A stretch of 64,000 nucleotides of DNA from Octopus vulgaris. Its lineage: Eukaryota. The position numbers and the translations under genes are program-made. The stretch covers positions 64,852,001 to 64,916,000 of the forward strand of contig OX597832.1 of the NCBI GenBank assembly GCA_951406725.2, in the 5' to 3' direction. Of the stretch, positions 33,369 to 63,897 are shown one piece after another; the stretch's first letter is position 1; each line of letters starts with the position of its first letter. The notes below the pieces were generated by a model. It made no database searches, had not been told where the DNA came from, and was given only the letters and a program-made list of their open reading frames with translations.

Positions 33369-33392
33369 TTGCATCTACTCTCGTACACAATC

Positions 33393-33761
33393 ATATGTGG
33401 GGTGGGAAAGAATTTAGGCAGTACACTGCAAAGCACGCGGCCTCGGTTTCAGTCTCACTGCGCGGCGGCATACTTCTGTGTCTTCTAGTGTCGCTCCGGG
33501 CCTACCAAATCCACTTGTAAGGCTTTGATCAGCCCGAGGCTATAATAGAAGACACTTGCCCAGGGTGCCACGCAGTTGGACTGAACACGGAACCATATGG
33601 GCGGGCTTCTTTCAGTTTCCGTCTACCAAATCTACTTACAAGGTTTTGGTAGGCCCGGAGCGACACTAGAAGACACCGAAGTATGCCGCCGCGCAGTGAG
33701 ACTGAAACCGAGGCCGCGTGCTTTGCAGTGTACTGCCTAAATTCTTTCCCACCCCACATAT
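33393..33761. repeat. Near-perfect inverted duplication of a SINE A head (arms 33393-33509 and 33645-33761) around minus-strand SINE A sequence
   Basis: ~117 bp arms with one visible mismatch; the ORF track gives the same peptide (MWGGKEFRQYTAKHAASV...) on both strands. Confidence 0.95.
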
Positions 33762-35459
33762 ACTTGTGTGCGTGTATGGATGAAGGATTTTCGTGATCGA
33801 ATGCGTGTTGACATTTGCGTTTCGTTACGTTAAAAAGAAAAATCGAAGTCGTGCTTGAAGAATGCTGCGATGGTGATGTTTTTCAAGCAAAATGAAAATG
33901 GGAGTAGTGTACATCGATCCCGAGACACGGATATATAAATAGAAATACCAGCAAATAATGCACCCTCACCCTTTTTTACGACATGTAAAATCAAATCCGT
34001 CACACAGCGTATCGATTGCTCCACACCCTCGAAAGTATCACGTTCTACATGTTATTAGTAATATGATCTCTCCTTCTCTCTCTCTTTCTTTCTTTCTTTC
34101 ATTCTCTTGTTTTCTACGTTTCTGTGTTTAGCGCAGTCTGTCATGTTGATGTCTCTGCGCATGTAAAACATCACACCCACAACGCCCTCCAACACCATAC
34201 CCCCACCCACTTCTGATCCATGCAAATTTTCGCATTAGTCTCGATGCATTTTAAATACCTGCACCGACATAGCTGCAGAGGTAGAAAGTTTGGCTTCTTA
34301 ACCACGTGATTCCCAGTTCGAATCCATTATGTGGAATAAATTGAGCAAAATATCTTCTGCTATTGTTCCAAGTTGACTTATGCTTTGTGATTATAAAAGT
34401 TGAGAGGCGGAAACAGTACCGAAGTCTGTTGGATGTTGAGTGTGTGTGTGTACTCTGGCCGTGACCATCGTGTTCAGTTTTTGTTCTGGAGTATTTATTA
34501 TAATAGAGGTAGGACTTCAAATCCGGCAGTCTGAAAAATTGCCTATTGCCAAGACCCCGGAAACAGCTGGAATTTATCATCTTACTGTACAGCCTTACCA
34601 TCTCATTGTAGATACACGGGTGCGTGAGTATATGCAAGAGCAAAATTTGAAACTCAGAATACAAATAATCTTCTCAAAACCATAGTGTATCGGTATATGT
34701 TACTAGTTGAAATATGCCTGAGAGATTCGAACTTTTAAGAAAGCCAATCACTGCATCTTGCCATGACGAAAACTTCTCATTGATCATTTAAAAAGGTGTA
34801 AAGACACCAAATCAGTCCGGTGCACTCTCTACCCAGATCGATTAGCCCTCAACTCAGATTGATTAGCGCTTCTAATCCGTGTTGTATTGATGACGATAGA
34901 TTCAAATACCCGGGGATACAAATCGAATTTTTAAAATCAAAATATACATTAAAAAAAGAAGAAAAAAAGGAATGATCAATTTTGGAGGAACAAAAATTCC
35001 GTGGGAAATGAAAAATTTGGAAAGATTATGACGATGTTTGAATGTTTACACTAAATACTACCCCGACCTTTATACCCGAAAATACAATAATAGCCAAAGG
35101 ATTCATTCCTTGCGTAAAAACACTAGAGAGACTTTTGAAAGCGATTTTCTTGTTATATTTTTTTCCTTCTGTAACTCGTTCATTGTTCACATAAAAGCTC
35201 TGCGTATTATTTAAGTAGGAATAATATTTTGTGTAGCGTAAATAGATAAATAAAAATTAACAAAAGCAGGAAAGTACAATTTCGAAAAACCTGTCCTACC
35301 AGCTGTGAATAACTGTCAAAACATATGACTAAATATATAAAACTGTGATTCTAAAGTTACTCAGCAGGAACGCAAATATTTTCGGCGTTTGATTGGTTGG
35401 TGATTTTTCTGTTTTGTATTGGCTGGAGGAAGGTGGGAATTGAGGTGCGGAAGGCAGCT

Positions 35460-35860: not shown

Positions 35861-36903
35861 TGAACTGATCCCGTTGTGGTGATGCTCGAAGAAATACCAC
35901 ACCCGACATTGTTCTTTAACTTGTTTAAACCCCCGAGTTCAATGCCATGTTAGATGTACCTTTCAATAAGTAAAATGTCGATGCCCTTGTCCAAGTTATT
36001 TTGATCGTGAGAAAGAAAATCGTGCGGTAGTTGTTGCAGAATTTCCTGTTCTGATTTCAAATCCTGACAAGATCAGCTTTTCTGGCAACGTTGTAGGAAG
36101 GTCAATAAATTAAGTAGATATTATAATATCAAGTGAGCTACCTCTTTGAAGTTAAATCTTTCACCTTTCTCTGTTGTGAAAACAAATGCCGATTCCTATC
36201 ACTGGTGTCCTCGTAGTGGCATTTGGATTCTTCACAACCTGGTTAGCAATGATAGATAGGCGCCAATGTCAAGTGAAGCGAGGCAGTGATTGTTGGAACC
36301 GTCCAGTTGCATCGATGTACTTGAACGTGAAAGTGGTTCAGAGCAGACACCAAAAGCAACTTTAGAAACCCGGCTCAACCAGACACAGTAACTCCATCAC
36401 ATAGTTAAGATACCGCAATGGTTACCAATCTTTTCATTATCAAGCACACAATGAATTATCCCCGCGCAGTCCAGGCTTCTGAAGGGCCTGTCTTGTTTTT
36501 ATGTTTTAATGAAGAGTGAAAAAGAAAAGGTGCTACCCGTGACACTTAACATGACCTTCACGACTGGTGGGTAGGAGCGAGAAATAGTATCCTCGACCGC
36601 AGACTTGTCCAGAAGGCTTGCAACAGAGTGGACTTTGTTAAAAAGCCCCAAGGTATCAGAATGGTGGACTTAAACAAGGTAAACGGTTATGTCTGCAACA
36701 AATTTAGCACTCAGACCACGAACCCCAAGGTGGAAACTTGGCACATGCGCTTATTGAATGTCAAGTACTCACTGATAACATCTAGTTGGTTGATATGAGT
36801 TCAATTCCTATGTTACTGAATCTACACATATTCAGTTTTAACAGGAACGAGCAAGCGGCCCTACATGTACAACAATAACAAATGCGACAATTTATAGGGT
36901 ATG

Positions 36904-37118
36904 AAGGCGGCGAGCTGGCAGAAACGTTAGCACACCGGGCGAAATGCTTAGAGGTACTTCGTCTGCCGTTACGATCTGAGTTCAAATTCCGCCGAGGTCG
37001 ACTTTGCCTTTCATCCTTTCGGGATCGATAAATTAAGTACCAGTTGCGTACTGGGGTCGATCAAATCGACTGACACCCTCCCCCAAAATTTCGGGCTTTG
37101 TGCCTAGAGTAGAAAAAA
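36904..37118 (+). mobile_element. SINE family B, well-preserved full-length copy
   Basis: AAGGCGGCGAGCTGGCAGAAACGTTAGC...GAGTTCAAATTCC (B-box-like)...GTGCCTAGAGTAGAAAA, flanked by GGTATGAA on both sides (candidate TSD). Confidence 0.92.
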
Positions 37119-37216
37119 TATCAGGTATGAATAACAGAATGAAATCAATCTAATAATAGGGATTAGATCCGGGTACTTTTCTGTCATCGGCAGCTAAATA
37201 TTTTTATTTACTAAAA

Positions 37217-41113: not shown

Positions 41114-42046
41114 TGTGTGTGTGTGTATGTGTGTGTATCTATCCGTTTCTCTCTCTTTTTCACACGCAAAATATCGTATTCAAAATATATATTCCATATA
41201 TACTTCCATGCAATAGCATCGCAAAATTATTGTAATCTAGCGATAAATAAAGAAAAAGAAAGACAGAAAGGAAGAAAGAGAACCATCTAGACCTGCATGT
41301 ATCTAAATTACAGAGTTTCGGCTTCTGACTTCCTTGATATTGAGTCATGTTTAATGACGAAACCAGAATTGGTGTTGAGAGTATAAAATATCCCTATTGA
41401 TTTCGGATATATTCATCTCTAGATATATATTTTTCCGACATTATTTTCTAATTATTCACTACTCTCGAACCGAACTTCCTCAGCTAACGCAACCAAATAT
41501 ATACTTGAGGCTTACGTTTTAAAGATTATTTAGAATTCGTGTGAATTTAACGTGATCGGCAACTTTGTCGTGTATTGAATTTTAAATATTCATGAGCTGC
41601 TTTATAACCGCCATTGCAGCACTCCTGTTTTATTTCAGTTACGGTTATATACGATAGTAGACAAATGTGTGTAACAAAATGGAGGAACCCTATCAATAGC
41701 AAAGAATCATGTCAAATGTTTTTTAGAAGTTCTGCAGTGAAGACTGAGTTGTTTTATATACATTGAACACCTGAACTTCTACATGGAAGCGATGCGTTCT
41801 GTCATTGCTGCCGCTCTATGATTCTTGTTTTTCTGCTAATGAATAATCTATAGAGACGAAACCTGACATATCTGTAAAAGACAGGATGCTCTCACCTGGA
41901 ATACTTGATATTTAACCCAAGGTCGCTCTCATAGGATCGACCAGGTGTTGACTATCTAAACAGTACTAACCAAAGAAAGAGCCTCTATGTAGTTGTTCGC
42001 CTGGCTGAATATAGCAGCTAAATCTCTTTCAATTTAAACTATCAAA

Positions 42047-42250
42047 TTCTGGCAGAAGGCCCGTAAGTTTGGGAGAAGGGTAAGATGATTACATCGACCT
42101 CAGTATTCGACTGGTACATATTTTATTGACTCTGAAAGGGATAAATGGCAAAGTCGACCTCGGCAGAATTTGAACTCGAAACAAAGATGGACGAAATACC
42201 GCTGAGCATTTTGCCCGGCGTACTAACGTTTCTGTCAACTCGCCGCCTTT
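42047..42250 (-). mobile_element. SINE family B copy
   Basis: GGCAAAGTCGACCTCGGCAGAATTTGAACTC...CTCGCCGCCTT. Confidence 0.88.
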
Positions 42251-43444
42251 CACTGTTCAACATATTAATAATAGGCATAGTATCTAGGCACAATATACAG
42301 GATGGTTGTGTTTGGAATGGTTTCATCCATAGGTATAATCGATTAGAATTGCCTGGGGGCTAAACGTCAACACATGTATATTTTGGTAGAACCGACAGGG
42401 AAGCTTCCGTGTGGCATCTTGCCCTGCGAGAAATAGTGCCAAAACCTTCTTTATATCATCTTAGAAAAAGCAAAAACAGAAAACTTTGGATTATATAGTC
42501 TTGTGTACGAAATATCTTAAAAGATGAGACGAATTGATTTGAGCACGGCTGGGAGTGTCTCGTTGAACATAGGTCTACAAATCCAGGATGACTTAAGGCT
42601 AAATATTAATTATATATTCCACTCTAAAGTATCACCATATTCGGTTGTTCTGAAATTCAACAGCTGAGCTCTTCATAATTCTGCGGAACCTCATTAAATT
42701 CCATATTTCTTTCGGCATGGAATAAGTCGCGGAAGAATTTATTTTCGAGTTCCTTACTGTGAAGTTGTGACGTATCTTAATGTAAAAGTTGCATACACAC
42801 ATACAAAGTATATATTCAGATACATGTACACATTCTTATGAACAACTGTGCGAGCGACACATATACATACGCATTAATATATAGTTCGTAAGTACAGAGG
42901 TTCTGTGATAAACAATAAGTATATTTTACACTTACACATTTAAACTTGTTTTTCATACATATATGCATTTATATATATATATATATATCACACGCTTACG
43001 CAGACTCATACAACAACTATATCACATATACACTCTTATGTACAAATGTGCATATTTATGCACATGCGTACTTCACACATATATGCATCTTTATATAATT
43101 CGCGCCTTACCACCTTCACAGCCACAAAAAACCTTTTCGTTCAGTGAATTGCTTTAAGCGAGAAATTTCGAATCGAAAGCACTTTATACTTTCACTTTGC
43201 AGGAATGGAGAGGAATCTGCAGATTTGGAAGAAACGAATCGAAACGTCCAACTGTAATATACACTACAACATTGTCGAGAGAGGTTTAAGTGAAATCTAG
43301 AAACGAAACGAAATAAATGTTGTACCTTGCTTAAAGGATTATCTGTGAATTAATGCAAGATCATGTAAAGTAGTTCTTTTTGTGTTTTTGTCTTTAAAAT
43401 GTTTTTTTTCATTCAATTCTGTAGTATGTAGCTTTTATCCTCAG

Positions 43445-44395: not shown

Positions 44396-44618
44396 ACCAT
44401 TAGTTTCAGGGGAAACAGGGTGACGATATCTTCGATCCCTATATTTCACTGGACAGTGGTATTACTAAATCTTATCCTTAGTTTCGAGCACCGTTTTGTA
44501 TTTCTGATATTTCCGAGTGGTCACACTCTAAAATATTAATTTTACATATCTAATTAAATGAAATTCAGGTACCTGTACATCATTATAAATGATACAAGTT
44601 TATTAATTCTGTACAACA

Positions 44619-45167
44619 AAGGCGACGAGCTGGCAGAATCGTTAGCACGTCGGGTAAAATGCTTAGCGGCATTTTGTACGTTGCCAACCTTCTAAGTTCA
44701 AGGTCCGTCGAGGTCGACTTCGCCTTTCATCCTTCTAGGCTTGATAAAATAACGTATTAAACGAGCACTGGGGCTGATGTAATCGACCAGATCTTTCCTC
44801 CAAAATTTCAGGTGTCGGGGGCTATAGTAGAACGGATTCATACTGTAACCATTCAAGGTACCAGTACACAATTTTAGCGGCGGCTTGGCTGTTTATAAGG
44901 TTTCAGACCATCAGCGTCCCGAAAGTTGTACCTTCATTAATAATTAAAATACATATAAAGGCGGCGAGTAAACGGAATTGTCGGCACGCCGAACAATGTT
45001 TCACAGCGTTTTGTCCGCCTTTATGTTCTGAGTTCAAATTCCACAGAGGTCAATTTTGACTTTCATCCTCTCAGGGTCGATAAAATTAGTACCAGTTGAG
45101 CGCTAGGGCCGATTCAATTGACTTCTTCCTCCAAAATTGCTGGCCTTGTGCCAAAATTTGAAACCAA
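44619..45167 (+). mobile_element. Two SINE family B copies (44619-44835, 44958-45167)
   Basis: AAGGCG.CGAG starts; GAGGTC.A.TT.G.CTTTCATCC internally. Confidence 0.88.
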
Positions 45168-45642
45168 TAATTAGAATACAAGCATAGTCACACACACACA
45201 TCAAACAATAAAACAAAGCATTGCAGTTTCGATTCCGCTTTTGCAGTTTCTGGAATGCAAAGAAGCGTCTGAAAAATGCGAGGCAGTGAATTTCCTCGAG
45301 TTAGATTCACATTTTCATTTGTAGACAATAAAACAACAAAAGAGGAAAAAACGATCTTGCCCGGAAGACTTACAACATACTCTATGGTGCTCAATATTAA
45401 TTAAACGAAAGTTATAATATGCATGTAAAAATTTGATAATGGTGTAATTAGCAATGAATCGTGATTGGATAGCATCAGTTCTTCATGCTGATGGCTCATG
45501 TCTTGGAGATGAAAATTTACAGTTCCCAGAATTTATTTGTAAACCAAGATAAAGTATAGATTGAGAATTTTTCGTGTGTATATATATATATATAGTAAGG
45601 CAATAAGGTGTGTGCGTGTGTGTATCAATATCCGGAAAGTCG

Positions 45643-50319: not shown

Positions 50320-51225
50320 CAGGAATTTACATTCTGAGTTCAAGTTCTGACGCGATCAAATTTCATTAATGGGTCTAACTTAAAGTACTAGGCAAATAGT
50401 TAGGTTAATTTAATCGATTCCGTCCCCACAAATTTCAGGTTTCTGGGGGTACAAATTTAAAGAGCGGTAGACTAGCAGGATTGATAGAACATCGGATAAA
50501 AAGCCTTGAGGTATTTAATAACAGCTCAACCGAGGGACCATAACATAACATACCAGTTGAATACTGGTCCTTATTAAACCATCTCCTCTACCTAAATTTC
50601 ATGTCTTATACTGAAAAATTTAAAGAGCAGAAGTTTAACAGAATCACCAGATCGTCGGGGAAATATTCCACTGTATTATTTCCGGCTCTATATACGAAGT
50701 TCAAATACCATTATATCCTTTTTCATCACACGTGTATCGACAAAATGAAATACCAGTTATGTACCCGGATCGTTTGTATTGATAAATATCCACCCGCTGC
50801 CCAAAAGTGTTAGGCTCAGGGCCTAAATCTGAAATTATTATTAAAGCGGAGAAATGGTAAAAATGTTGGTTCAGAAAAAATTACTTGCAGTATATTTCGG
50901 GTTTTAACATTCTGAGGTTAACTTGGCTTTCCATAAAGTTGGGACCGATCAAATAAAGTGCTAAACAATTTAATGACCTTCTACCTAAATCATTATTATT
51001 ATTTGTAAAGGTAGGTGTGACTGGCAGAATCGTTAGCACAACGGACAAAATGCTCAGCGGCACTTCGTCTGTCTTTGCATTCTGAGTTCAATTTTTTCCG
51101 AGGTCAACTTTGCCTTTCATCCTTTCGGGGTCGATAAATTGATTACCTGTTATGCATTGGGGTTGATGAAATCGATTATCCCCCTCCCGCAAACTTTCAG
51201 GCCTCGCATCTATAGTAGAAAGGGT
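50320..51225 (+). mobile_element. Run of tandem SINE family B copies; decayed at 50320-50990, well preserved at 51012-51225
   Basis: Repeated TTCTGAG/GTTCAA motifs; the last copy has CTGGCAGAATCGTTAGCAC...GAGGTCAACTTTGCCTTTCATCCTTTCGGGGTCGATAAA. Confidence 0.75.
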
Positions 51226-51247
51226 TAATTGATAATTGGATTGCGAA

Positions 51248-56269: not shown

Positions 56270-56895
56270 TTTTCTATTCTATTCACAAGGCCCGAAATTT
56301 TGGGGTAGGGGGCAAATCGGTTAGATCGACCCTAGTATGCAACTGGTACTTAATTTATCGACCCCGAAAGGGTGAAAGGCAAAGTCGATCGCGGAGAAAT
56401 TTGAACTTAGAACGTAAAGGCTAACGAAATACAGCTAAGCATTTCGCCCGGCGTGTTAACGTTCCTGACAGCCCGCCGCCTTAGCATCGGATATATTTAT
56501 TGCCCACTGTGGACTAAACATAAAGGGACAGACAGAGGGATTAAGTCGATAACATCGACCCCAATGCGTGACTGGTACTTATTTAATCGACCCCGAAAGG
56601 ATGAAAGACTAAGTCGACCACGGCGGAATTTGAACTCAGAACGTAGCGGCAGACGAAATACCTATTTCTTTACTGCTCACAAGAGGTTACACACAGAGGG
56701 GACAAACAAGGGCAGACAAACAGATTAAGTCGATTTTATTGACCCCAGTGCATAACTGGTACTTATTTAATCGACTCCGAAAGGATGAAAGGCAAAGTCG
56801 ACCTCAACAGAATTTGAACTCAGAACGTAGCGGCAAACGAAATACTGCTAAGCATTTCGCCCGTCGTGCTATCGATCCTGACCGCCTGCCGCCTT
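56270..56895 (-). mobile_element. Three tandem SINE family B-type copies with a repeated 15-bp target sequence
   Basis: Three ACTGGTACTT...TCGAC.CCGAAAGG.TGAAAG...AAGTCGA...TTTGAACT.AGAACGTA blocks; AGCATCGGATATATT at 56254, 56483 and 56896. Confidence 0.92.
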
Positions 56896-58028
56896 AGCAT
56901 CGGATATATTCTCGGCAACAATGCGATTTCTGTGAAAGTTTATTAGGGCGCGCAAGGAAACACACATCCACATACAAGTAACCGCAAATATAAACACAGA
57001 CCTGTATAAAATACTTATATACACCCATTTATCTATATCCATTTATGTTATATGAGTGTATAGACAATCAGGGTCATTTGATACCCTCTAATATTTCTCT
57101 CGTTCATTGTTTATGTGCATGAGCCTACTCCTCTATGTGTATGAAGAGAGGCAAAGTTGTGTTAATCGGTTTCAATAAAGAAATTGCAATGTCTATCTGA
57201 CCTTGGTGTCGGACCTGGTAGGACTGAGCGCAGGACTCCTTGATTGTGAAGTAGACTTCTTAATTATACAGCCTGCGTCTATAACCATGTCTGCACTTAG
57301 CAAACTGGAACGCTAATATACTCGATAGGAGAAGGAATTTGCTTCTAAGAGGAAACGTGATGCACCCAACTACAATCTCCCGTCTCTGCAACTGCAGAAG
57401 CTGCGATGTAGACATATGTATAAGCATATAGTTTCAAATCTTATTGTTATGTTTCATAACAAGAAGCAGGCATTGAACGATATTTTATATAGAAAAATCC
57501 AGGAGTATCTAGTTTAAAATCATTCTTGTGTTCCGGGGCCAAATAACGGTGTCATAAACAATAACTTCTGACACAATTCTGTTGGAGTTTGGAAGCAATA
57601 AAATAATAACACAAATAGATTTACGTTTCTTGTCAGAGTTTCTCGTTTGAAATGCATCGTTTTGTTGTTGTTGTTATAGTTTAGCTGCTGACCATCTTTG
57701 AACAGACATTTTTAGCAGTTTCAAACATAATGCTTTTTGTCTATTTTATAAGTATAGCATATCGAGGGCTACATTATCCAGTGTCTTATATTTTTAATTA
57801 ATGAGGGTGTAATTAGAAATATATATGGGGATCAGGGATTAATGCCAAATCTAATCAGTGGGAAAGGGTTTGGATTTAAATTGAAACCGAAAAAGAAGAG
57901 AAATATTAATGTACTTAGTATTAATTGATCAAAATTTCGATGAACGATCGAAGGAAAGAGTTTCAGTTTCTCGGACACGCAGTGTGCCTCGGTTAAGGTG
58001 TGTTATATGCCGGAATATTTGAATTGGT

Positions 58029-61125: not shown

Positions 61126-62489
61126 CTTTTCTATTTTTTTATCTGTCTAAACACACGTTTATTCTTGAGTTAACTTTTACGAATGGCCTGCTCAAAAGCT
61201 TCTTACAATCGGGTACTTCATTTATCGTTTCCATTTTGTCGACTTGCTCAGTGTAACAAGAAATACATGTTTACACTGCTAAACATGCCTACACATACTG
61301 CTTCCTCAAAATTTCCATGCACCAAATTCAGCCACAAAACATTGGTAAACGCATGATAATAATAGAAATCACTTGTCTATGTTGCCGCGCATTTGGGTCG
61401 ATGGTCGGCCATGCACCTTTGTAGGGAAGTTCTGAACCACACAAATATGACTAAGTATATATGAACATGCACCATATATAGAATGTCCTCATGGGGACAC
61501 AGAGACAATTCTATATTCAAAGAAAAGGAGAGGAAGAGAAATAGTGACAGAGTAGAATCGTTAGAGCGCCGCGAATAGAAGTGGTGCCATTTGTGATATG
61601 TCTATATTCTGAGTTAAAATTCCGCAAAGGCCATCTTTGCCATTCATTCTCTGCGGCAGTCGATGGAATTTGGTACCAGTGATGTACTGGGTTAATGGCA
61701 TCGACTTTGCTCGTAATTCATGGTCATGTCTAAATCGGGAACGTTTATCATATTGGTCCTTGATCAAGGTTTCATAGCGAAACCTCAGAATTGGGAAAAG
61801 GCTAAATGGAGTCGCAATGAGGAGAGAGAGAGAGAGGGAGAGATACAGAGAGAGGGGGTGGAAGGAGAGCTGGGGGAAAAGGTGAGAGAGAAGGAGAAAG
61901 AAAATAGAGAGGGATATTGGAGGGAGACGGAGAGACGAGCGAGATGGAGGTAGAAAGGAAAAAGAGAGAGGGTCGGAGGTAGAAATGAGAGAGATAGAAA
62001 AGAGGAGGAGAAAAGAAAGAGAATGGAAAGAGAAAGAGGGGTATGGTTCGAGAATGATGGCCACTACGTAACTGGCAATGTAGCAATCTAGAATGGAAAG
62101 CAGTCTACCTCGGTAAGATTTTAATTCATGAGAGAAAGAGAGAAACTCTTATAAAATACAGCAAGTCCTGCTCTCCCCGATACTCTACCAACTCATTCGC
62201 CCACAGAGAAACATGTACAAAACCCATGTGCAGAGGCACGTCCACTTATATGTGTTTACAGAGATCTTCACATAATGCATTCATATATATATATGTGCGT
62301 GTGTGCTGTGTGGTAACCTTACAATCTTAATTTGTGCAATCGAGTTATTTATTCCCTGAGAGTGCTCTGCAACTAATTAGATTGGGGAGCTATGATCTAT
62401 GTCTTTCTGAAATTAATGAGCGGAAATAATGAATCTGGAACATACATAAAGAAAATGTTTCTGTCGCTATGTACATCTAGTGTGTGTGT

Positions 62490-62528
<39 letters not shown>

Positions 62529-63189
62529 CGTGTGTGTGTACGCGCATATATGAATCTCATACGTTGTGTATGAACGGATCGATGTATGGATCTTATGATT
62601 GATGATTCACGCCTGGAACTCGTTTTATGATACATAGGTCCGCGTGTTTAAGGCTGAGCTGGGACTTAGCTGCTGCTGGTGCTGCTGCTACTACATATGC
62701 TAACGCACATCGACACATACGCACACATAGCAGATAGCCACAGATGTATACTTTGAACAATATACAGTACTTATCAGCGAGTAAATAAGGGCGGCTGCGT
62801 GGTTACCCAGCATGCTGAAAGTAGTCCCAACATCTCCCTCAAGTTATACGCTACAGTCTCATAAAGAGAACGATTTATTAAATGATGCCATTATACACAC
62901 ACAAATGAGTTGACAAACGAAAGAAGCAGGCACTTAACACATTTAGTTGGGAGAAACATGTATTATCAAAAACAGTTTGATTCGGTTCCATGCAAGTTAC
63001 AGTTTCGTTGGCTCCTCACAGAAACCTAGTTCGTCGGTCAACGACTGCAACAAGAGTGTGTGTGTGTGTGTGTGCGTGCATGTGTATGTGTACGCGCGCG
63101 CTCGCACGCACTGCTGTATCAGCGCCAAGCAATATTTAAGCAGAAGCGAACTTTACGTTAAAATATGTTTGTGACATGTTGCAACTTGT

Positions 63190-63760
63190 ATGGGCAAATT
63201 TACTGCAGCAACCGTGGAGGAAAAAAACCTAAACATTCTCTAATCTGCCCAGTGGTGCCCTCTATCGGATTCCCACACCAATGAGAAATACCAAATATGG
63301 GAATCCGTCAGGATGCAACACTGCACGGATGAGGTGTTTTAATTCATTTTTGTCCTAAGAGAATTTTTTGCCTGCGGTAAACTGCAGTGAATTTCCCTTT
63401 AGAAGCTGAAATCTGTCAATAAACATTTTTGACTAAAGTTTGGTTATACCAAACCACAGCGGATACTGCTGAATTCCTTCCGTTCAGGCACTCCAATAGC
63501 GCAACTCAATGTTGTTGACTCCACTTTAGTTAAAGCTACAGCTGTATATCTGCCCAGAATTACCTCAATTGGGTTTCTACCATTGAGGAAGGCTGAAGAG
63601 CCAGGATCGCTGTGTCTGGGAATTCTATGAAGGGCAACACAGGGTAGACATTCTGTTTTTGCACTTGTTACTACAAGAGAGCTTTCCCTCCACTGTTACT
63701 GCACTAAATTCGACTTTAGAAGTTGATATCTGTCACAAATATTTAACTTTAGTTCGCACA
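63190..63760 (+). mobile_element. Hammerhead-delimited tandem element, locus 2
   Basis: Inverted partial unit ~63196-63275, collapsed HHR remnant ~63277-63297, 319-bp unit 63298-63616, HHR motif at 63583, partial next unit to ~63760. Colinear with 20850-21450. Confidence 0.68.
63572..63625 (+). ncRNA. Degenerate minimal type I hammerhead ribozyme motif
   Basis: TTCTACCA-TTGAGGA-A-GGCT(GAAG)AGCC-A-GGAT-CGCTGT-GTC^TGGGAAT. Stem II is perfect and a GUC triplet is present, but the GAAA box is mutated (likely inactive). Confidence 0.5.
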
Positions 63761-63762: not shown

Positions 63763-63810
<48 letters not shown>

Positions 63811-63821
63811 GTCTGTCTGCT

Positions 63822-63859
<38 letters not shown>

Positions 63860-63897
63860 TCTATCTGTCTATCTTCCCATCTATCTATCTATCTATC
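63762..63897. repeat. (TATC)n/(TGTC)n microsatellite
   Basis: Direct reading. Confidence 0.95.

What the first reader, a model, noticed from the sequence alone, without database searches (positions are those of the whole stretch)
63190..63760. Second, independently diverged locus of the same hammerhead tandem element 42 kb away
Seen: 63298-63616 (319 bp) aligns end to end with 21072-21374. Shared blocks are GAATCCG, CACTG, AAGAGA..TTTGCC, GTAA.CT.CAGT.AATTT, AACAT.TTT, TGTTGACT, TAAA.CTAC.GCT, ATCTGC and the HHR. The HHR segment CCATTGAGGAAGGCTGAAGAGCCAG looks more conserved than the rest of the unit. Inference: the family is dispersed and was mobile, and the ribozyme core was under constraint while active. 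Units within a locus are also diverged, so these insertions look old.
Basis: partly seen in the sequence, partly recalled or inferred. Interest (0 to 1): 0.8.

Follow-up and report, generated by a model that had tools for sequence, protein, structure and literature searches.

The report
Old fossil Penelope-type hammerhead retrozyme copies
Two worn copies, 42 kb apart, of a roughly 310-base non-coding repeat with a damaged hammerhead-ribozyme motif belong to a family found at many places in this animal genome, and their back-to-back layout suggests that a Penelope-type jumping gene likely pasted them in long ago, which makes them an ordinary fossil of a known kind of genomic parasite.

Summary
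The homology is real: 63298-63616 and 21072-21374 are monomers of one repeat, from predicted cleavage site to cleavage site (0 of 500 shuffles score as high, also without the hammerhead). The family is dispersed: 86 and 97 contigs per DNA run carry the hammerhead stretch at 80% or more. Both loci are a partial tandem with an inverted, truncated arm, flanked by microsatellites. Two outer ends fall at one point of the unit and a third about 35 nt further, the Penelope "tail". This fits a non-autonomous, Penelope-mobilised retrozyme, now fossil. All arms, within and between loci, are equally diverged (50-72%), so most change likely came after insertion. "Core under constraint" is only partly supported: stem II is conserved (2 of 45 letters changed), but catalytic letters decayed near background (6 of 36), and locus 2's core has three substitutions. 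The extra A on both sides of stem II recurs in an unrelated array (L007) and once in a published alignment. This scan had already noted young families of this kind elsewhere in this genome. New member of a known kind; low interest.

The parts
63111..63275 (-). Locus 2 inverted arm: copy of the sequence 3' of the predicted cleavage site, including a roughly 35-nt outer extension (tail, about 63111-63145)
   Evidence: I1-I3; 0 of 500 shuffles
63276..63297 (.). 22-nt filler between the two arms; hammerhead-derived remnant with the core interior missing; strand ambiguous (16 of 22 on +, 15 of 22 on -)
   Evidence: (I3)
63298..63616 (+). Locus 2 full monomer (319 nt, 42% GC), from predicted cleavage site to predicted cleavage site
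63577..63622 (+). Locus 2 type I hammerhead motif: core 63583-63589, extra A 63590, stem II 63591-63602 (4 of 4 pairs), extra A 63603, predicted cut after 63616; broken at C3U (opposite G8), A13G, A15.1U
63617..63756 (+). Locus 2 terminal partial unit (140 nt), ending at the shorter of the two end points
   Evidence: (D2)
63056..63091 (.). (GT)n microsatellite, left flank of locus 2
63763..63897 (.). (ATCT)n microsatellite, right flank of locus 2
20850..20996 (-). Locus 1 inverted arm; its inner end carries the 3' half of a further hammerhead copy (20981-20996); outer end at the shorter end point
21000..21071 (+). Locus 1 end of a truncated unit with hammerhead copy 1 (core 21039-21045, U3-A8 form; A15.1G)
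21072..21374 (+). Locus 1 full monomer (303 nt, 38% GC)
   Evidence: (D4)
21336..21380 (+). Locus 1 hammerhead copy 2: all 12 core letters intact, palindromic 8-nt stem III region, one mismatch in stem II (21359) and mismatches in stem I
21375..21460 (+). Locus 1 terminal partial unit, heavily decayed; right end not resolved (weak likeness to about 21500)
20776..20843 (.). (GT)n(GA)n microsatellite, left flank of locus 1

Best explanation
The two loci are decayed copies of one roughly 310-nt non-coding repeat with a type I hammerhead motif, each laid out as a partial tandem plus an inverted arm between microsatellites, and they were likely written into the genome long ago by the reverse transcriptase-endonuclease of a Penelope-like element acting in trans on the repeat's RNA. 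Shown: homology, layout, arm end points, dispersal, damage to the cores. Inferred from published Penelope biology: the repeat was transcribed as multimers; its hammerheads would cut weakly as dimers through the palindromic stem III; the borrowed enzyme would nick both strands of a microsatellite and start copying at two fixed sites about 140 and 175 nt downstream of the cut site, giving two arms that meet inside the insertion and a tail at one end. After insertion the copies likely drifted neutrally (about 0.18-0.28 substitutions per site per copy). The locus-2 ribozyme is predicted to be dead.
For: Homology beyond chance with and without the hammerhead. Inverted arms at both loci, each 0 of 500 shuffles (I1-I3). 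The locus-2 right end and locus-1 left end map to the same point of the unit (63441-63442 in locus-2 unit coordinates); the locus-2 left end runs on to 63471, about 35 nt more of the arm. This matches the partial tandem, inverted 5'-truncated copy, 30-40 bp tail and microsatellite bias described for PLEs (PMC8557442 section 6) and the two RT start sites that define the tail (PMC11167929 passages). Ends lie 21, 6, 5 and 86 nt from microsatellites; 2.2%, 0.6%, 0.6% and 8.9% of unmasked positions are that close. The motif fits the PLE minimal-hammerhead consensus: unpaired base after A9, G10.1-C11.1, palindromic helix III, and the U3-A8 form known from Schistosoma (PMC4209133). Paralogous contigs restore the stem II pair at 21359 (37 and 38 contigs). 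86 and 97 contigs lie on the hammerhead stretch, 84 and 95 of them under 95% alike. Contigs from other loci join the unit's end back to its start (table 5). No RT or endonuclease family in 25 of 90 long frames scanned.
Against: No autonomous partner was found or could be sought (no genome held). Rfam has no hammerhead match at either locus. No copy folds into the hammerhead as its lowest-energy structure, and monomers fold no better than shuffles (z 0.19 and -1.03). The pair count on alignment A3 showed no covariation above shuffles (472 of 500 as high), though that alignment was one column off for the L007 rows. The tail rests on three ends, and the fourth is unresolved. Ends were set where alignment fades into microsatellites, so adjacency is partly circular. 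Stem II is better kept than pure neutral decay predicts, which this account explains only by chance, ascertainment or mixed templates.
Confidence: 0.75

Rival explanations
1. The loci are 5'-truncated ends (pseudo-LTRs) of an autonomous Penelope-like element, and the short tandem arose by local duplication or re-insertion rather than from a free-standing 310-nt RNA.
For: Every structural hallmark found is a PLE hallmark. Retrozymes and pLTRs are related, and this route is proposed in 10.64898/2026.07.22.740005.
Against: Both loci have the same 303-319 nt period with the same linker between arm and hammerhead. Other loci show the same end-to-start joint. No coding remnant was seen.
Confidence: 0.12
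2. Each locus is a MITE-like DNA transposon with terminal inverted repeats of about 140 nt; the hammerhead-like motif is a passenger.
For: Locus 2 begins and ends with inverted copies (63165-63224 / 63683-63742, 77% complementary).
Against: A third, direct copy of the same arm lies inside each locus. The two ends of locus 2 differ by about 35 nt. The locus-1 inverted arm runs on into a hammerhead half.
Confidence: 0.06
3. The hammerhead block is still, or was until recently, under selection at these loci (a domesticated ribozyme or a conserved stem-loop).
For: Stem II and flanking A's changed at 2 of 45 letters. Locus-1 copy 2 keeps 12 of 12 core letters. Among paralogous contigs the depth peaks over 21342-21357 and no core position is listed as differing in 10% or more.
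Against: Core letters changed at 6 of 36, like background. The locus-2 core has three substitutions, and its upstream copy lost its core. The profile is biased, because contigs must match well to be laid. In run X5 the distal arm block draws as much depth as the core.
Confidence: 0.04
4. The second locus is a local or segmental duplicate of the first, with no mobility involved.
For: The loci are only 42 kb apart and share the same overall layout.
Against: Flanks do not align. Inner junctions and outer ends differ. Same-position arms are no more alike than cross pairs. Dozens of other contigs hold the repeat.
Confidence: 0.03

Closest known systems
Animal non-LTR retrozymes (Cervera and de la Pena 2020, PMC7229834; Li, Clavereau and Pollet 2026, 10.64898/2026.07.22.740005)
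   Same: About 300-nt non-coding units of under 45% GC, one type I hammerhead per unit, short tandems, many dispersed copies; proposed to be non-autonomous PLE derivatives.
   Different: These copies are old and fail the 'active' criterion of two consecutive complete hammerheads. Expression, circles and cleavage were not shown. The inverted arm and tail did not appear in the parts of these papers that I read. The unit sequence matched nothing in the searches available.
Penelope-like element insertions and pseudo-LTRs (Craig et al. 2021, PMC8557442; Frangieh-type in vitro work on PAc, PMC11167929; first-author name recalled)
   Same: Partial tandem, inverted 5'-truncated copy, 30-40 bp tail at one end, microsatellite flanks, ends downstream of the hammerhead cut site.
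   Different: No RT or GIY-YIG frame; the whole insertion is about 650 nt.
Minimal PLE hammerheads (Cervera and de la Pena 2014, PMC4209133)
   Same: Core with an extra base after A9, G10.1-C11.1 pair, short helix I, palindromic helix III, U3-A8 form.
   Different: A second extra A lies between stem II and G12. In their alignment of 56 motifs this occurs in 1, which by row order in the extracted PDF text is the Cotesia bracovirus PLE. Stem II here is short (3-4 bp).
Young hammerhead retrozyme families noted earlier by this scan in the same genome (e1-8672319, e1-8670273, e1-8662707; unchecked AI notes)
   Same: Two back-to-back arms from two fixed points, microsatellite targets, Penelope-type footprint.
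   Different: Those are young 359-495 nt families. This one is about 310 nt, strongly diverged, and gave no sequence look-alike in the scan index.

Membership tests
Animal non-LTR retrozyme | Head-to-tail units of a few hundred nt, each with a type I hammerhead motif | tested here: met
   Periods of 303 and 319 nt; two motifs at locus 1, one motif and one remnant at locus 2
Animal non-LTR retrozyme | Non-coding, GC under 45% | tested here: met
   38% and 42% GC; no frame of 90 aa or more at locus 2; the one frame over locus 1 that was scanned gave only a sub-threshold Spo7 hit
Animal non-LTR retrozyme | Dispersed, multi-copy | tested here: met
   86 and 97 contigs at 80% or more on a 98-nt stretch; no true copy number available
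Animal non-LTR retrozyme (active) | Two consecutive units with complete hammerhead cores | tested here: not met
   Only 1 of 3 full motifs keeps all 12 core letters; these are fossil copies
Animal non-LTR retrozyme | Highly self-paired monomer RNA | tested here: inconclusive
   Circular folding z 0.19 and -1.03 against 60 shuffles; the copies are too decayed to judge the ancestor
Animal non-LTR retrozyme | Self-cleavage and circular RNA in vivo | not testable with these tools
   No run on record as RNA holds the stretch; contigs cannot show circles or ends
PLE-type insertion | Inverted 5'-truncated copy next to a partial tandem | tested here: met
   Both loci; 0 of 500 shuffles in each of four comparisons
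PLE-type insertion | 30-40 bp tail at one end | tested here: met
   Two ends at one point and a third about 35 nt further; fourth end unresolved
PLE-type insertion | Microsatellite target bias | tested here: inconclusive
   3 of 4 ends within 21 nt of a microsatellite, but the ends were partly defined by those repeats; target duplications were not tested
Autonomous PLE | RT plus GIY-YIG endonuclease ORF | tested here: not met
   None within either insertion; none in 25 of 90 long frames of the window scanned
PLE derivative | Sequence homology to the pLTR of an autonomous PLE in the same genome | not testable with these tools
   No genome held; no repeat library available
Minimal type I hammerhead of PLEs | Core CUGANGA and GAAA...UH, extra base after A9, G10.1-C11.1, palindromic helix III, helix I | tested here: met
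   All present in locus-1 copy 2, with stem II pair restored in paralogs and stem I imperfect; broken at locus 2; no Rfam match

The most novel reading that the evidence does not exclude
Locus 2 is a fossil of the ribozyme cutting in vivo. Both arms stop at the predicted cleavage nucleotide (63275 on the minus strand and 63298 on the plus strand) and are joined by 22 nt of hammerhead-derived sequence lacking the core interior. This would mean the Penelope enzyme ran off the 5' end of self-cleaved linear RNA and built multimers by imprecise end-to-end template jumps rather than by rolling round a circle. The A-flanked short stem II, shared with an unrelated array (L007), would then be a working in vivo variant. 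The case rests on one decayed locus; locus 1 reads through the cut site.
Probability: 0.15. Interest if true: 0.55.

Novelty: new member of a known kind. Interest (0 to 1): 0.2.

Why it matters
By itself it matters little. It adds an old family to the many hammerhead repeats of this genome and suggests that Penelope-type mobilisation of small ribozyme repeats was already running tens of millions of years ago. That date assumes the genome is an octopus, as the scan's notes say, and uses the calibration in PMC13282606, where a PLE expansion at JC 0.2 is put at 56 My. It is also a caution: an eye-catching conserved block in two dead copies does not show selection on catalysis. It would matter more if a genome-wide count showed arm ends piling up at the cleavage site, which would be genomic evidence that these weak ribozymes cut in vivo and would bear on circle versus linear templates.

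Tried and rejected
Whole-genome copy count: no genome is held. Rfam: no hammerhead family for either locus or for L007; the 150 rows shown of 279 for the whole window were microsatellite-driven and none was a hammerhead family. Pattern scan of viral contigs: 0 hits. Pattern scan of metagenome contigs: 17 loci, of which 16 lack hammerhead flanks by my reading of the context and were set aside as chance; L007 was kept. L007 as a member of this family was rejected: its non-hammerhead part does not align (12, 233, 128 and 216 of 500 shuffles as high). Positional orthology (a fixed heterodimer master) was not supported: same-position arms are 51-64% alike and cross pairs 50-67%. The first pair count used a mis-registered structure; the repeat showed no covariation above shuffles, on an alignment one column off for L007. 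A script on L007 stopped with an error after printing its alignment. No RNA holder is listed. Two runs only guessed to be RNA hold 1 and 3 contigs on the hammerhead stretch and were not used as evidence of expression. The scan index gave no look-alikes. Lunse et al. (PMC5785218) and Arkhipova et al. 2017 (PMC5850863) were not available, nor the supplement of PMC7229834; these may describe the A-flanked stem II. Searches for an octopus or cephalopod retrozyme in print found none (Creative Commons PMC and bioRxiv only).

Full report
1. Observation. The stretch 63298-63616 aligns with 21072-21374 far above chance: local score 440 against 226 +/- 20 (maximum 293), global 433 against 193 +/- 24, in 500 dinucleotide shuffles. 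Without the hammerhead the match holds (78.4 against 36.9 +/- 6.1; 0 of 500). It is loose: 200 of 362 columns are identical, and the middle falls to 2-13 identities per 25 columns. Both stretches run from the base after one predicted cleavage site to the next C17. The masked self-comparison of the window showed no third locus at E 1e-4; a weak 52-nt match at 34682-34733 (E 0.002) was not followed.

2. Each locus has an inverted copy of the unit's first part on its left. Locus 2 is: inverted arm 63111-63275, a 22-nt filler, a full monomer 63298-63616, and a partial unit 63617-63756. Locus 1 is: inverted arm 20850-20996, a unit end with hammerhead 1 (21000-21071), a full monomer 21072-21374, and a decayed partial unit from 21375. 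Each of four arm comparisons beat all 500 shuffles. The right end of locus 2 and the left end of locus 1 map to the same point of the unit, 63441-63442 in locus-2 coordinates. The left end of locus 2 runs on to 63471, about 35 nt more of the arm; the right end of locus 1 is unresolved. The four ends lie 21, 6, 5 and 86 nt from microsatellites, with the caveat that alignment necessarily stops there. Craig et al. describe this set for Penelope-like elements: partial tandem, adjacent inverted 5'-truncated copy, and a 30-40 bp tail at one end (PMC8557442, section 6 read), with microsatellite bias (passages). In vitro work ties the tail to two reverse-transcription start sites downstream of the hammerhead cut (PMC11167929, passages). 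The idea of checking for two fixed end points came from earlier scan notes on other families; the measurement is mine.

3. The ribozyme motif. The copies read: stem I, core C3-A9, an extra A, a 4-bp stem II with a 4-nt loop, a second extra A, G12-A15.1, a short palindromic stem III region, U16.1-C17. The position labels are the standard hammerhead numbering, assigned by me. Locus-1 copy 2 keeps 12 of 12 core letters. Copy 1 has U3-A8 and A15.1G. The locus-2 copy has C3U opposite G8, A13G and A15.1U, so it is predicted inactive from established core requirements. Among paralogous contigs the stem II mismatch at 21359 is restored (37 and 38 contigs, about 82% of depth), and the variable letters cluster at 21367-21371, partly in the pattern of CpG decay (my inference). 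The motif fits the minimal PLE hammerheads of Cervera and de la Pena: unpaired base after A9, G10.1-C11.1, palindromic helix III, a U3-A8 form, and low activity as dimers (PMC4209133, main text parts 1-2 of 4). The second extra A is rare but not new. In their supplementary alignment of 56 motifs one entry reads AGAAA, by row order the Cotesia bracovirus PLE (parts 1-2 of 3 of the file; the column order in the extracted PDF is an assumption). The same layout occurs in L007, a metagenome record with nine noisy units of 249-275 nt spacing, in which 7 of 9 show the motif's stem II-A-GAAA letters exactly. Its unit is otherwise unrelated. Against: Rfam finds no hammerhead, no copy folds into it as its lowest-energy structure, and the pair count showed no excess covariation.

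4. Is the core more conserved? The quoted 25-nt block is the best window (22 of 25). Neutral simulations gave a best window this good in 30-73% of 400 runs per setting, and in 0.25-2% at a fixed place. For the motif defined in advance, identity is 36 of 47 against 164 of 230 elsewhere (P=0.59); it has fewer gaps (P=0.003 with gaps). Over the three full copies, catalytic positions departed at 6 of 36 against a background of 184 of 792 in the arms (141 of 661 without the worst row), P 0.24-0.33. Stem II, its loop and the flanking A's departed at 2 of 45, P 0.0007-0.002. That count leaves out the half copy in the locus-1 arm and the badly damaged locus-2 filler, and the background may be inflated by misalignment, so the effect is real-looking but modest. 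In one search depth peaks over 21342-21357, but contigs must match well to be laid. In run X5 the distal arm block draws as much depth (7,500-9,200) as the core (about 6,800), as expected if every insertion carries that block at both ends. So the well-kept part is not the catalytic part, and constraint during activity is neither shown nor excluded.

5. Dispersal and age. laid 86 (X4) and 97 (X5) contigs on a 98-nt stretch, with 0 at 99% or more and 2 each at 95-99%, the locus itself among them. laid 351-631 records per run on a 1.2-kb stretch that also holds other repeats. These are contig counts, not copy numbers. Contigs from other loci join the unit's end back to its start (table 5). Locus 2 is present almost unchanged in a run with another organism label (X8: 63112-63654, 2 differences, 1 gap). 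All arm pairs are 50-67% alike in one alignment and 61-72% in another, with no excess likeness within a locus or between same-position arms. This star pattern implies mostly post-insertion decay, about 0.18-0.28 substitutions per site per copy. If the genome is an octopus, as unchecked scan notes say, this falls at or beyond the PLE expansion put at JC 0.2, about 56 My (PMC13282606, section 7 read). A few positions draw very high depth per contig in some runs (63181 in X5: 18,058 over 51 contigs), so a younger relative sharing the distal block may exist; I could not retrieve it.

6. Mechanism. Shown: homology, layout, end points, dispersal, damage. Inferred: a multimeric transcript of the 310-nt unit was copied by a Penelope-like RT-endonuclease in trans, primed from both nicked strands of a microsatellite at two fixed sites about 140 and 175 nt downstream of the cut site. 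The two cDNAs met near a hammerhead, and the insertion then decayed. Confidence 0.75. Rivals: truncated pLTRs of an autonomous element (0.12), a MITE (0.06), a locus still under selection (0.04), a local duplicate (0.03). One detail may record cleavage. At locus 2 both arms stop at the predicted cut (63275 and 63298), with 22 nt between them that match the hammerhead's 5' side about equally on either strand (16 of 22 and 15 of 22). At locus 1 the inverted arm reads through the cut. One case cannot separate template jumping on cleaved RNA from a later deletion.

7. Comparison and verdict. It works like an animal non-LTR retrozyme (PMC7229834, passages and section 14; 10.64898/2026.07.22.740005, parts 1-3 of 5) with a PLE insertion footprint. 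It meets the structural criteria, fails the criterion for an active copy, and cleavage, circles and a partner element are untested. Searches for octopus or cephalopod retrozymes in the held library found no description. Other papers were seen as passages only: PMC6765202, PMC6155905, PMC3088659, PMC8967140. Lunse et al. and the Terminon paper were not available. This scan already holds many notes on young families of the same kind in this genome (249 notes fit the words; 8 shown). Verdict: new, old member of a known kind; interest 0.2.

Noticed in passing
window 62895-63050, minus strand: A separate high-copy repeat abuts locus 2 across the GT microsatellite (summed depth up to about 9,000 against 51-56 for single copy). 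It has a hammerhead-like layout with a variant first core half at 63037, a long stem II and GAAA; paralog letters improve the stem III-UH end. Probably another PLE or retrozyme family.
   Followed up: partly
L007:1-2390, minus strand: Metagenome record that is a head-to-tail array of nine roughly 260-nt units with the same A-flanked short stem II hammerhead. The indel-rich differences look like long-read noise, so the array may be young. Unit unrelated to this family.
   Followed up: partly
window 21326-21348 and 21025-21043: The sequence upstream of the core can pair with the core's 5' half and forms the lowest-energy hairpin in both locus-1 copies. The partner of position 3 changes with it (G-C in copy 2, A-U in copy 1), and copy 1 also has A8. 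Possibly an inhibitory alternative fold with coordinated changes.
   Followed up: partly
window 63157-63200 and 63380-63440: The distal block of the arm is the most often matched part of locus 2 in four runs, with some very deep contigs; candidate signal for the borrowed reverse transcriptase, possibly shared with a younger family.
   Followed up: no
window 4527-4910, 5120-6040, 7489-7720, 14603-14840, 36860-37120, 42040-42290, 44570-45180, 50990-51230, 56285-56920, 61540-61740: A frequent roughly 220-nt dispersed repeat, in places tandem or inverted, 60-86% alike between copies.
   Followed up: no
window 17011-17276 and 33372-33782: Two long imperfect palindromes (73% and 82% self-complementary); the second is built from another dispersed repeat.
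   Followed up: no
window 9184-11438: A 2.2-kb AT-rich microsatellite array that produces long spurious open frames and Rfam miRNA hits.
   Followed up: no
window 34682-34733, minus strand: Weak 52-nt match to the locus-1 inverted arm (73%, E 0.002); may be a third small fragment of the family.
   Followed up: no
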